Source of the DNA: Escherichia coli
Lineage (GTDB): Bacteria > Pseudomonadota > Gammaproteobacteria > Enterobacterales > Enterobacteriaceae
Assembly: GCF_003334815.1 (NCBI RefSeq)
Contig: NZ_QOWO01000003.1
Reading direction: 5' to 3' (one strand)
Length of the DNA: 64,000 nt
Shown: positions 29,673 to 63,289 of the stretch, one piece after another
How the letters are laid out: every line of letters starts with the position of its first letter
Numbering within the stretch: position 1 is the stretch's first letter
Position numbers and translations under genes: made by a program
The notes under the pieces: generated by a model
Database searches by the model: none
What the model was told of the DNA's origin: nothing
What the model saw: the letters and a program-made list of their open reading frames with translations, nothing else

Positions 29673-29740
29673 TTTGTCATTAAAACAATAGGTTATATTG
29701 TTTTAAGGTGGATGATTAAAGCATCTGCCAGCCATAAAAA

Positions 29741-32479: not shown

Positions 32480-32944
32480 ATGGAAAAGAAATTACCCCGC
32501 ATTAAAGCGCTGCTAACCCCCGGCGAAGTGGCGAAACGCAGCGGTGTGGCGGTATCGGCGCTGCATTTCTATGAAAGTAAAGGGTTGATTACCAGTATCC
32601 GTAACAGCGGCAATCAGCGGCGATATAAACGTGATGTGTTGCGATATGTTGCAATTATCAAAATTGCTCAGCGTATTGGCATTCCGCTGGCGACCATTGG
32701 TGAAGCGTTTGGCGTGTTGCCCGAAGGGCATACGTTAAGTGCGAAAGAGTGGAAACAGCTTTCGTCCCAATGGCGAGAAGAGTTGGATCGGCGCATTCAT
32801 ACCTTAGTGGCGCTGCGTGACGAACTGGACGGATGTATTGGTTGTGGCTGCCTTTCGCGCAGTGATTGCCCGTTGCGTAACCCGGGCGACCGCTTAGGAG
32901 AAGAAGGTACCGGCGCACGCTTGCTGGAAGATGAACAAAACTAA
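32480..32944 (+). CDS. soxR: Redox-sensing MerR-family regulator SoxR (154 aa)
   Basis: [70 protein letters not shown]...; C-terminal [2Fe-2S] motif [12 protein letters not shown]. Confidence 0.97.
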
Positions 32945-33080
32945 AGCGCCACAAGGGCGCTTTAGTTTGTTTTCCGGTCTTTGTCTTTCTCTCTATCCCG
33001 CTGGTACACAGGAGGGTTTCCCCCGACGTCAACACACCTCATTCGAGCACGTGGTGGAGGTTCCGGTTGGTGTTGATGCT
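32938..33080 (-). ncRNA. ryjA: Possible small RNA RyjA (recalled from literature as lying between soxR and yjcD; boundaries approximate)
   Basis: Not verifiable from sequence alone: the 545-bp soxR-ghxP gap is far larger than a simple promoter needs and the soxR terminator hairpin is also a good terminator on the minus strand. Strand and ends are from memory. Confidence 0.25.
32942..32975. terminator. Bidirectional hairpin terminator at the soxR 3' end
   Basis: taaagcgccacaagggcgcttta flanked by tttgtttt on the plus strand and ttttgtt on the minus strand. Confidence 0.55.
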
Positions 33081-59510: not shown

Positions 59511-61408
59511 TTAATTTGGGGTTACGATATTCACCCACAAATCGAAATTATCCAGACAGGCGATAATTTCTTCCAGTTTCGCGCCATTGCCAATAATTTT
59601 GGCTTTCTTCGCTTTTACCAGATCCGCCATTTTGGCTTGTCCGGTCAGCACGGCGTGCAGATCTTCACGGCTGATGTAGAAAGAGGCGTCGGCTTGCGGT
59701 TGCAGCGTTTTCCGGTAGTTAAGCACGCTATCGTTCAGCGTCAGGTTGAGGTTATCGCCGTTGCTCATATTGAAGTTCAGGCTGATATTTTTACCCGCAG
59801 CTTTCGCGCTATCGAGGCGAACGGCCATAAAGTCGAACAGCATTTCGACCGACATCCCGCGAATGGTGTCCGGGGAACCGGTGGTGCCGTGGCTGAACTT
59901 ATGCACCCCTTCGCGCAGCTCTTTCGCGCCGGTCAGGTAGAAACCGCGCCATGTGGCGGACTCGGCCTGATAGCCCAGCTGTTCAAAGTTATTCGCTTGC
60001 AGATTCTTCGCGACCTGGTCACCCGGGTTGGCGGCAATCACCTGTTTCAGCAGTTCTGCCGACCAGCGGTAATCACCTTGCTTGTTCGCTTCTTGCGCCA
60101 GGTTGATGACACGGGCAGAACCGCCCAGCGCCTGCACGTAACGTTTACCCATCTCCACCTGACCATACGGATGCAGGTTAGCCGGGTTACCGTCGTAATA
60201 GCCAAGATAGAAGTTATACACCGCGCGGGCGTTGTGGCTGACAGAACCGTAATAGCCGCGGCTGGCCCAGTTATTGGCAAGTGCAGGCGGCAGCTTAATC
60301 ATGTCGCCGATTTCATTCATGGTGTAGCCCTGGTTCGCCAGGTGTGCGGCATAAACAGCACTTCCGCGTCGTTACCCCACATATCCAGCGTTTCGTTCAG
60401 ATACTCGGTCCACTTGCTGGTGTCGCGGGTTTTCGCGCCGCGCAGAGTGTAGAAGTTGTGCAGGGTATGCGTGGCGTTCTCGGCGGTACACAGGGCTTTC
60501 AGGGCCGGAATATAGAAGTGCATTTCGGCTGGCGCTTCGCTACCTGGGGTCATCAGGAAGTCAAACTCCAGGCCGTCGATAATCATCTTCTCGCCAGTTC
60601 TGACGATAGTTTTCGTCGGTGCAATAATGCTCGGGTCGCCCGTTGCCAGCGTCACGCCAAGGCCATTACCCACATTGCCTTGCGCGTTGTGCGGCAGTAA
60701 CAGACCGTAAGAGTAGAGCGCACGGCGGCTCATGATGTTACCCGCCAGCACGTTTTCGCTGATGGCTTCGTCCATAAAGCCTGCAGGGGCAATCACCTGA
60801 ACTTTGCCGGATTTAACATCGGCTTCAGAGATAATGCCTTTCACGCCACCATAGTGGTCGGTGTGGCTGTGAGTGTAGATAACGGCAACAATCGGTTTTT
60901 GCGGACGATGCTGGAAGTAAAGGTCAAGTGCGGCTTTTGCGGCAGGCGGCGTCACCAGCGGGTCGATAACAATAATGCCTTTCTCGCCCTCAACGAACGT
61001 AATGTTAGAGATATCCTGGCCGCGCACCTGATACATTTTATCGGTGACTTTGAACAGGCCAGAAATACCGTTGATTTGCGACTGACGCCACAGGCTGGGG
61101 TTTACGGTTTCCGGCGCTGCGGCATTAATATCAAATTTGTAATCGTCCGCGCGGTAGTAAACTTTACCGTTCGCATCACGCAGAATACCTTCATCCAGCA
61201 GCGGGGCGATAAATCCACGCTGGGCATCGTCAAAATCCTGACGATCGCTAAACGGTAATGATTTGGCGTAATTCTGATTAACCTGTTGGGTATATTGAGT
61301 GGCGGCTTTCGCTTCCTCTTTCGCGTTAGCGGTATTTACCATCATGCCGCTGGCGGCAGTTAACGCAATAACAATCCTGCTCAAACGGAATAACCGAGAG
61401 TTATTCAT
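59511..61408 (-). pseudogene. yjcS: Alkyl/aryl-sulfatase gene yjcS split into two frames (N-terminal MBL-fold fragment and C-terminal fragment)
   Basis: Track ORF 60317..61420 (MBL-fold; [11 protein letters not shown]) ends ...[16 protein letters not shown] 59511..60320 ([17 protein letters not shown]...) starts in a different frame whose upstream codons read ...HLANQGYT. Frame break near 60337..60346. Confidence 0.6.
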
Positions 61409-61637
61409 ATAAATCTCCATTTATCATTTATGTCGTAAATATGTAATCCATGCAAAATACGTCATTTAAAGCTGGCGTTATCATAATTGGGAAATTGCGA
61501 CTTTAATAAGTGGAAGTGTGAGCGGAACGCGCCATTTTATTAGGCATTTGTGCTGAAGAGGGAAAATTACAGTAAAACTATCATTGCAGAAAATAATATG
61601 AGTCGTTTTATGTGTTTATTATATATATTGTACCTGT

Positions 61638-61678
61638 CGTTGGCACAGCGGGACATTGCGCTACTGTGCCAACGTTTT
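61638..61678. terminator. Hairpin immediately downstream of alsK (als operon 3' end); T-tract lies on the plus strand
   Basis: cgttggcacag ... ctgtgccaacg (11-bp arms, 15-nt loop) followed by tttt on the plus strand. Confidence 0.4.
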
Positions 61679-61680
61679 AC

Positions 61681-63289
<1,609 letters not shown>

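What the first reader, a model, noticed from the sequence alone, without database searches (positions are those of the whole stretch)
61638..61678. Strong hairpin after alsK whose T-tract is on the opposite (plus) strand
The 11-bp-arm hairpin directly downstream of the alsK stop is followed by TTTT on the plus strand, not on the als-operon strand. It may terminate an unannotated plus-strand transcript coming from the yjcS-alsK intergenic region, or act as a T-tract-independent als terminator.
Basis: seen in the sequence. Interest (0 to 1): 0.25.

Follow-up and report, generated by a model that had tools for sequence, protein, structure and literature searches.

The report
U-tract-less stem-loop ending alsK mRNA
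The hairpin just after the E. coli allose kinase gene alsK is real, and it most likely caps the 3' end of the alsK message at a Rho-dependent termination site, which is an ordinary, already described kind of gene end.

Summary
A perfect 11-bp inverted repeat (61638-61648 / 61664-61674, 15-nt loop, about -21 kcal/mol) starts 6 nt after the alsK stop codon. TTTT follows it only on the plus strand.

The plus-strand terminator reading is not supported:
- In every non-K-12-type sequence sampled the tract is CTTT.
- The two stem substitutions seen in divergent Escherichia keep pairing only in the minus-strand RNA (G-U), and give A-C mismatches in a plus-strand RNA.
- No plus-strand promoter-like site was found.
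- Published Term-seq lists no 3' end there on either strand.

The hairpin is not an intrinsic terminator on the als strand (1 U in the first 8 nt after the stem). [quoted passage not shown] - A published bicyclomycin experiment places a Rho termination region 13 nt downstream of the stem.

The hairpin is single-copy, found only in Escherichia, and better conserved than its flanks. Direct 3'-end mapping under als-expressing conditions is lacking. This is a new member of a known kind and of low interest.

The parts
61638..61674 (-). Stem-loop: 11-bp perfect stem (arms 61638-61648 and 61664-61674) with a 15-nt loop (61649-61663). Read on the minus strand as CGUUGGCACAG-UAGCGCAAUGUCCCG-CUGUGCCAACG.
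   Evidence: A conserved island in divergent Escherichia: arms 20-21/22 identical, loop 12-14/15. Pairing is kept on the minus strand through G-U changes.
61675..61680 (-). 6-nt spacer between the alsK stop codon and the stem (minus strand GUAAAA; plus strand TTTTAC). It contains the plus-strand 'T-tract'.
   Evidence: Position 61675 is T only in the K-12-type allele and C in all other sampled alleles.
61681..62610 (-). alsK (D-allose kinase) coding sequence. Stop codon TGA at 61683-61681.
   Evidence: RefSeq annotation (MG1655 4306870-4307799).
61478..61637 (-). Untranslated, AT-rich stretch directly 3' of the hairpin with C well above G (35 C, 17 G). Candidate Rho loading (rut) and termination zone. 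It is also the upstream region and leader of yjcS.
   Evidence: C/G = 2.06, top 0.33% of 160-nt windows in the window.
61625..61625 (-). Position of the highest Rho score in a published termination region (MG1655 4306814, minus strand, classed 'orphan'). It lies 13 nt 3' of the stem base.
   Evidence: Adams et al. 2021, PMC7815308, Supplementary file 2: reads upstream/downstream 53/32 without BCM and 75/202 with BCM; Rho score 4.46; p = 6e-9. Coordinate conversion.
61618..61646 (-). Sigma-70-like promoter match pointing at yjcS: -35 GTGCCA (inside the 3' arm of the stem), 17-nt spacer, -10 TATAAT. This is a consensus match only and may not belong to the feature.
   Evidence: 10 of 12 positions match. 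It was the only promoter-like hit in 61000-62200, where 1.7 are expected by chance.

Best explanation
The inverted repeat works as an RNA stem-loop in the minus-strand (alsK / als operon) transcript, formed 6 nt after the alsK stop codon. It is not an intrinsic terminator by itself, because no U-tract follows it on that strand. Transcription that has passed alsK enters a 260-nt untranslated spacer that is C-rich and G-poor. There Rho can load and stop RNA polymerase. 3'-to-5' exonucleases (PNPase, RNase II) then trim the heterogeneous ends back to the base of the stable hairpin, which defines and protects the mature 3' end of the alsK message. The same arrangement insulates the downstream, same-strand gene yjcS from als transcription.

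Shown: the structure exists, it is conserved, it is biased towards the minus strand, it lacks a U-tract, C exceeds G downstream, and a bicyclomycin-sensitive region has been published at this spot. Inferred: that the terminated RNA comes from alsK, that the mature 3' end lies at the stem, and that the stem protects the RNA from exonucleases.
For: (1) The structure is real, stable and non-random.
(2) It fails the criteria for an intrinsic terminator on either strand. The loop is 15 nt. The minus-strand tail ACAGGUAC has 1 U in 8. The plus-strand tail has 4 U in K-12 and 3 U elsewhere. The scan does not call it.
(3) Strand bias. The only two stem-internal substitutions seen are G61642A (in L005, L018 and L028) and T61667C (in L028). 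Both give G-U pairs in the minus-strand RNA and A-C mismatches in the plus-strand RNA. Pairing is 98.7% of cells on the minus strand against 93.5% on the plus strand. The variants fold to -15.2 to -19.5 kcal/mol on the minus strand and -12.1 to -15.8 on the plus strand.
(4) The hairpin is a conserved island. In divergent lineages the arms are 20-21/22 identical and the loop 12-14/15, against 16-28/40 in the adjacent 40 nt.
(5) The 160 nt just 3' of the stem on the minus strand have C/G = 2.06, the top 0.33% of the window.
(6) Adams et al. 2021 (PMC7815308, Supplementary file 2) list a Rho termination region at 4306814 (-), which is window 61625, with Rho score 4.46 and p = 6e-9.
(8) Klebsiella grimontii also has alsK followed by yjcS. 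It carries an unrelated 12-bp stem (7-nt loop, one G-U on the sense strand, no U-tract) at the same place.
(9) alsK is reported to be transcribed at a low level independently of AlsR (PMC10519446, citing Poulsen 1999). Sense transcripts therefore exist even without allose.
Against: - No 3' end has been mapped at the hairpin. Term-seq in LB and M63-glucose lists none, although als expression is low in those media.
- The Rho score uses 800-nt windows, so its position is approximate.
- With BCM there are more reads downstream than upstream (202 against 75). This could reflect de-repression of a yjcS promoter, or Rho attenuation in the yjcS leader, rather than read-through from alsK.
- The strand bias rests on two substitution events. 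The chance that both favour one given strand is about 0.25, and there are no double compensatory changes.
- The loop is nearly as conserved as the stem, which a simple exonuclease barrier does not require.
- A short A-run (UAAAA, or UAAAG in other alleles) precedes the stem. Dar & Sorek report that such A-tracts are not typical of this class.
Confidence: 0.55

Rival explanations
1. The hairpin has no function. It is a neutral palindrome that persists at the left border of the als gene cassette because Escherichia lineages are closely related.
For: The hairpin occurs only in Escherichia. Other genera carry unrelated sequence after alsK. Homology between als-plus and als-minus E. coli ends at about 61629-61633, 5 nt from the stem, so it marks the edge of a replaceable segment. 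Only two informative substitutions exist and there is no compensatory covariation.
Against: In the three divergent lineages the hairpin is much better conserved than both flanks. The changes that did occur in the stem keep the minus-strand pairing. K. grimontii has an unrelated hairpin at the same position. The coincidence with the C>G region and the published Rho region would then be accidental.
Confidence: 0.2
2. It is a DNA-level element: a protein-binding palindrome and/or part of the yjcS promoter. Examples would be a site for NtrC or sigma-54 holoenzyme, or the -35 element of a sigma-70 promoter.
For: Both arms contain TGGCAC, the sigma-54 -24 motif. Genomic SELEX found NtrC binding (43%) and RpoN holoenzyme plus NtrC binding (41%) with a peak at 4,304,842 in the yjcS/alsK spacer. 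That coordinate is in the older MG1655 numbering and converts to window ~61630. A gel shift used a probe spanning 61396-61769 (PMC8743547). A sigma-70-like -35/-10 match overlaps the 3' arm. The loop is conserved as well as the arms. yjcS is also listed as a SutR SELEX target (PMC5934670).
Against: The hairpin has no correctly spaced -12 element. The gap is GG-N9-GC on the minus strand and far too wide on the plus strand. The only GG-N10-GC element in the probe is TGGCGCTCAGGGTGCA at 61750-61735, inside alsK. No NtrC-box core was found in the probe region. The sigma-54 ChIP-seq paper and its supplements do not mention alsK or yjcS. The half-sites are 26 bp apart centre to centre (about 2.5 helical turns), which is unusual for a dimeric regulator (inference). 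The arm motif is absent from the als promoters. The array resolution is about 100 bp or more. The G-U pattern of substitutions points to RNA rather than DNA.
Confidence: 0.15
3. It is a plus-strand intrinsic terminator for an unannotated transcript, such as a small RNA, that starts in the yjcS-alsK spacer.
For: In the K-12 allele, TTTT directly follows a -20 kcal/mol stem on the plus strand.
Against: The tract is CTTT in all other alleles sampled, including the outgroups, so TTTT is a derived K-12-type state. The 15-nt loop and 4-U tail fall below the scan threshold. No plus-strand promoter-like site was found. No plus-strand 3' end appears in Term-seq under three conditions. The stem substitutions weaken the plus-strand fold by 3-5 kcal/mol relative to the minus strand. 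There is no Rfam match.
Confidence: 0.05
4. It is an atypical intrinsic terminator on the als strand that releases RNA polymerase without a U-tract and without Rho.
For: The stem is stable and placed right after the stop codon, and nothing else resembling a terminator follows alsK.
Against: By established knowledge, E. coli intrinsic termination depends on the U-tract. Here only 1 of the first 8 nt after the stem is U, and the loop is 15 nt. Bicyclomycin raises the downstream signal 4.5-fold, which implicates Rho.
Confidence: 0.05

Closest known systems
[quoted passage not shown]
   Same: A stable stem-loop just after the gene with no U-rich tail on the sense strand. C-over-G enrichment lies immediately downstream. 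A bicyclomycin-sensitive region is mapped at the site.
   Different: No steady-state 3' end has been mapped at this hairpin. The loop (15 nt) is longer than usual. A short A-run precedes the stem. The loop sequence is conserved.
Intrinsic (Rho-independent) terminators
   Same: A G+C-containing hairpin in the spacer downstream of a stop codon. On the plus strand of K-12, four T follow it.
   Different: There is no U-tract on the gene's own strand. The plus-strand tract is short and not conserved. The loop is long. No 3' end is detected on either strand.
Bidirectional intrinsic terminators between convergent genes
   Same: A palindromic hairpin with an A-run on one side and a T-run on the other, so it could in principle be read from both strands.
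   Different: alsK and yjcS run in the same direction, not towards each other. Only one strand has a T-run. There is no evidence of a plus-strand transcript.
Sigma-54 (-24/-12) promoters
   Same: TGGCAC occurs in both arms. In vitro RpoN holoenzyme plus NtrC binding is reported in this spacer (PMC8743547).
   Different: The GG-to-GC spacing is wrong in the hairpin. No in vivo sigma-54 peak is reported. A better-spaced element lies about 65 nt 5' of the hairpin on the minus strand (61750-61735), inside alsK.

Membership tests
Intrinsic (Rho-independent) terminator | Stable G+C-rich stem directly upstream of the release site | tested here: met
   11-bp perfect stem, about -20 to -21 kcal/mol on either strand.
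Intrinsic (Rho-independent) terminator | Short loop (about 3-8 nt) | tested here: not met
   The loop is 15 nt. The scan, which requires loops of 3-8 nt, does not report the site.
Intrinsic (Rho-independent) terminator | U-tract directly after the stem on the transcribed strand (at least 5 U in 8 nt) | tested here: not met
   The minus-strand tail is ACAGGUAC (1 U). The plus-strand tail is UUUUACUC in K-12 (5 of 8 U, but only 4 contiguous) and CUUUACUC or CUUUAUUU elsewhere; L028 differs further (CUUAUAUU). The run is not conserved.
Intrinsic (Rho-independent) terminator | RNA 3' end mapped at the U-tract | tested here: not met
   No Term-seq 3' end at MG1655 4306600-4306899 on either strand in three conditions (PMC7815308, Supplementary files 1 and 3). 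Caveat: als expression is low in those media.
Rho-dependent terminator with protective 3' stem-loop | Stable stem-loop downstream of the gene that is not followed by a U-rich sequence | tested here: met
Rho-dependent terminator with protective 3' stem-loop | C-over-G (rut-like) composition just downstream of the stem-loop in untranslated RNA | tested here: met
   61637-61478 on the minus strand has 35 C and 17 G, ratio 2.06, the top 0.33% of 160-nt windows. 78-nt windows reach 2.56.
Rho-dependent terminator with protective 3' stem-loop | Read-through increases when Rho is inhibited with bicyclomycin | tested here: met
   From the literature, not from my own data. Rho termination region at 4306814 (-), score 4.46, p = 6e-9 (PMC7815308, Supplementary file 2). 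Positional resolution is coarse (800-nt windows), and the source of the RNA (alsK read-through or a yjcS-leader transcript) is not resolved.
Rho-dependent terminator with protective 3' stem-loop | Precise steady-state 3' end at the base of the stem, lengthened or lost in exonuclease mutants | not testable with these tools
   This needs Term-seq or 3' RACE in alsK-expressing cells and in pnp and rnb mutants.
Sigma-54 promoter | GG and GC elements separated by exactly 10 nt (TGGCAC-N5-TTGC) | tested here: not met
   The hairpin reads TGGCAC-AGTAG-CGCA on the minus strand (GC one position early) and TGGCAC-N9-TTGC on the plus strand. It is not among the matches with up to 2 mismatches or up to 3.
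Sigma-54 promoter | Sigma-54 occupancy in vivo | tested here: not met
   The ChIP-seq paper (PMC4591121) and its 8 supplementary files have no entry for alsK or yjcS, or for nearby coordinates in either numbering. In vitro gSELEX binding does exist.
Repetitive extragenic palindromes (REP/BIME-type) | Many copies per genome | tested here: not met
   One copy in the window allowing up to 3 mismatches. The median is 1 place per genome in the 3367 E. coli genomes that have it.
Described RNA families (Rfam 15) | Covariance-model match | tested here: not met
   Only two sub-threshold chance-level hits in 61000-62200, and neither overlaps the hairpin.

The most novel reading that the evidence does not exclude
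The 37-bp element is conserved in its loop as well as its stem. It coincides with an in vitro NtrC / RpoN-NtrC binding peak. It lies about 50 nt downstream of a correctly spaced sigma-54-like element inside the end of alsK (61750-61735, pointing at yjcS). It could therefore be a regulatory device for the alkyl sulfatase gene yjcS rather than for als. One version is a leader hairpin that, together with Rho, attenuates transcripts starting inside alsK. Another is a DNA site where sigma-54 holoenzyme or NtrC sits and represses the overlapping sigma-70-like yjcS promoter.
Probability: 0.1. Interest if true: 0.4.

Novelty: new member of a known kind. Interest (0 to 1): 0.13.

Why it matters
The value is mainly in annotation. 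It gives the end of the als/alsK transcription unit a defined structure and mechanism: Rho-dependent termination with a protective stem-loop. It also explains an 'orphan' Rho termination region in a published data set. It removes the suggestion of a hidden plus-strand RNA. It shows that a T-run next to a hairpin can be a lineage-specific accident. It does not open a new biological question. The only mildly interesting thread is a possible link to yjcS regulation and to the variable yjcS-yjdP interval.

Tried and rejected
- Sigma-54 promoter in the hairpin. TGGCAC is present in both arms, but the -12 element is mis-spaced and there is no in vivo ChIP-seq peak.
- NtrC box. No core match in the gel-shift probe region. 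The best full-length match has 5 mismatches, at 61693-61709 inside alsK.
- Repeat family (REP-like). The element is single-copy in the window and in each genome.
- Rfam family. No match.
- Paired recombination site at the borders of the als cassette. No comparable hairpin at the rpiB/yjdP border, or at the borders of the alternative cassettes.
- AlsR operator. The arm motif is absent from the als and rpiB promoter regions.
- RNase III site. The published als site is at 4307817, near the alsE/alsK junction, not at this hairpin.
- Searches that gave nothing. The TSS paper of Thomason 2015 and the BCM paper of Peters 2012 are not held. Conway 2014 and Dar & Sorek 2018 have no supplements held. 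The Cappable-seq supplements contain no nearby coordinates. The gSELEX supplementary tables could not be located by coordinate.
- Broader covariation. Only Escherichia carries the hairpin, so just two informative substitutions were available.

Full report
**Context.** The window is E. coli K-12-like. Window coordinate + 4245189 gives the MG1655 (NC_000913.3) coordinate for positions above 60344. alsK occupies 61681-62610 on the minus strand. The next gene on the same strand, yjcS (alkyl sulfatase), starts at 61408 (annotated start) or 61420 (first ATG). This leaves a 260-nt AT-rich spacer.

**Observation.** The inverted repeat is exactly as described.
- The arms are 61638-61648 and 61664-61674, 11 nt each, perfectly complementary, with a 15-nt loop.
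- The stem starts 6 nt after the alsK stop codon (TGA at 61683-61681).
- The plus strand continues TTTTAC. The minus strand continues ACAGGTACAATATAT.
- The fold is about -21 kcal/mol. On the minus strand no shuffle out of 200 folds as well (z = -3.0). On the plus strand 8 of 200 do (z = -1.9).
- Perfect 11-bp inverted repeats with short loops occur at four places in the window, against 0.23 expected.

**What it is not.**
- The consensus scan does not call it a terminator on either strand. It finds no plus-strand promoter-like site in 61000-62200.
- Rfam gives nothing.
- It is not a repeat family. There is one copy in the window even with 3 mismatches, and a median of one place per genome in the 3367 of 5426 complete E. 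coli genomes that carry it.
- Both arms contain TGGCAC, the sigma-54 -24 motif. I therefore tested the sigma-54 idea. No correctly spaced -12 GC follows on either strand. The sigma-54 ChIP-seq study has no entry for this locus.

**Comparative evidence.** Loci related to AlsK from 16 species show the hairpin only in Escherichia: E. coli, a divergent E. coli lineage (L005) and E. whittamii (L018). Citrobacter, most Klebsiella, Kosakonia, Enterobacter and others have unrelated downstream sequences.

Seven ordinary E. coli alleles have invariant arms. Every allele that differs from K-12 has C instead of T at 61675, so the plus-strand run is CTTT. The outgroups agree. The TTTT is therefore a derived feature of the K-12-type allele.

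In three divergent lineages (L005, L018, L028) the hairpin stands out as a conserved island. The arms are 20-21/22 identical and the loop 12-14/15. The adjacent 40 nt are only 16-28/40 identical.

The two substitutions inside the stem are G61642A and T61667C.
- Both convert Watson-Crick pairs into G-U pairs in the minus-strand RNA and into A-C mismatches in a plus-strand RNA.
- 98.7% of pair cells are standard on the minus strand, against 93.5% on the plus strand.
- The variant hairpins stay uninterrupted on the minus strand (-15.2 to -19.5 kcal/mol) and are 3-5 kcal/mol weaker on the plus strand.
- With only two events this is suggestive, not decisive.

An independent hint comes from Klebsiella grimontii. 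There alsK is also followed by yjcS. An unrelated 12-bp stem sits at the same place, with a 7-nt loop, one G-U on the sense strand and no U-tract.

**Mechanism.** On the minus strand, the 160 nt directly 3' of the stem contain 35 C and 17 G. The C/G ratio of 2.06 is in the top 0.33% of 160-nt windows in this window, and 78-nt windows reach 2.56. The stretch is untranslated. This is the composition expected of a Rho loading region.

Adams et al. 2021 (PMC7815308, Supplementary file 2) compared direct RNA sequencing with and without bicyclomycin. They list a Rho termination region whose highest-scoring position is 4306814 on the minus strand.
- That position is window 61625, 13 nt 3' of the stem base.
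- Reads upstream/downstream are 53/32 without BCM and 75/202 with BCM.
- The Rho score is 4.46 and p = 6e-9.
- It is classed 'orphan', apparently because it lies 56 nt past the alsK stop.

Dar & Sorek 2018 (PMC6061677) showed that Rho-dependent E. coli transcripts end, at steady state, immediately downstream of stable stem-loops. These stem-loops lack U-rich tails, are followed by C-over-G sequence, and protect the RNA from PNPase and RNase II. The alsK hairpin fits that description.

alsK is reported to be expressed at a low level independently of AlsR (PMC10519446). That accounts for sense reads in cells grown without allose.

**Caveats.**
- No 3' end has been mapped at the hairpin. The same paper's Term-seq tables have no entry within 4306600-4306899 on either strand. 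This also argues against an abundant plus-strand RNA.
- The Rho score has coarse resolution.
- Under BCM the downstream reads exceed the upstream reads. Part of the signal may therefore come from transcripts that start in the spacer. A sigma-70-like promoter, with its -35 GTGCCA inside the 3' arm and its -10 TATAAT at 61623-61618, is predicted there. The 3' bias of direct RNA reads is another possible cause.
- Conservation of the loop is not explained by a simple exonuclease barrier.

**DNA-level rival.** Shimada et al. 2021 (PMC8743547) report in vitro genomic-SELEX binding in the yjcS/alsK spacer: NtrC at 43% and RpoN holoenzyme plus NtrC at 41%. The peak is at 4,304,842. Other spacers in the same table, such as glnA/typA at 4,056,244, show that this is the older MG1655 numbering. 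It converts to window ~61630. They also report a gel shift with a probe that I mapped to 61396-61769.

Within that probe the only GG-N10-GC element is TGGCGCTCAGGGTGCA at 61750-61735 (minus strand), inside the end of alsK. No NtrC-box core is present. The binding therefore cannot be assigned to the hairpin. It keeps a DNA-level or yjcS-regulatory reading alive at low probability.

**Locus dynamics.** About 2000 E. coli genomes lack the hairpin. Homology with als-minus strains ends at 61629-61633, 5 nt from the stem. The interval between yjcS and yjdP holds one of three things:
- als plus rpiB, as in K-12;
- a sugar-utilisation island with a two-component system, as in O157:H7;
- a remnant with a truncated rpiB.

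No matching hairpin sits at the other borders. The hairpin is therefore the outermost piece of the als segment, not one of a pair of recombination sites.

**Verdict.** The plus-strand terminator idea is not supported. The 'T-tract-independent als terminator' idea is supported in the refined form of a protective 3' stem-loop within a Rho-dependent terminator. Confidence is about 0.55. The main rivals are no function (0.2) and a DNA-level or yjcS-regulatory role (0.15). This is a new member of a known kind and of low general interest.

Noticed in passing
window 60337-60344 (junction); MG1655 locus L004 5447-5534: The window lacks 88 bp of yjcS that MG1655 has. The deletion lies between two 8-bp direct repeats (GCCAGGTG). 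It splits yjcS into two frames (ORFs 60317-61420 and 59511-60320). The 15 best-matching complete E. coli genomes all carry the undeleted form.
   Followed up: partly
window 61735-61750 (minus strand), inside the 3' end of alsK: A sigma-54-like -24/-12 element, TGGCGCTCAGGGTGCA, with the correct GG-N10-GC spacing and pointing towards yjcS. It is the only such element in the probe used for the published RpoN/NtrC gel shift, so it may account for that binding.
   Followed up: partly
window 61618-61646 (minus strand): A sigma-70-like promoter match (GTGCCA, 17-nt spacer, TATAAT; 10 of 12 positions) directed at yjcS. Its -35 lies in the 3' arm of the hairpin. The -10 block is retained in als-minus and O157 strains.
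   Followed up: partly
window ~61629-61633 and beyond; loci L001, L002, L029: The yjcS-yjdP interval is a replacement hot spot. It holds als+rpiB in K-12-like strains, a roughly 9-kb sugar-utilisation island with a response regulator and a hybrid kinase in O157:H7, and a short remnant with a 5'-truncated rpiB in others. All three share the same left breakpoint just before the hairpin.
   Followed up: partly
window 62090-62120, inside alsK: Another perfect 11-bp inverted repeat (TGGGTCATATC, 9-nt loop), lying within the alsK coding sequence.
   Followed up: no
window 61691-61709, last codons of alsK: A second small palindrome (AGCACAG-AA-CTGTGGC) repeats the CACAG/CTGTG core of the hairpin arms. 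On the minus-strand RNA, CUGUGCUAA (61699-61691) could pair with the 5' arm of the hairpin as an alternative 9-bp helix.
   Followed up: no
window 29680-29706 and 32938-32968: Two other perfect inverted repeats of 11 bp or more with short loops, elsewhere in the window. They were not examined.
   Followed up: no
E. coli plasmid record NZ_CP048307.1, 40819-40868: The alsK end with the hairpin region is also found on a 94-kb record counted among plasmids. Two plasmid places were found in all.
   Followed up: no
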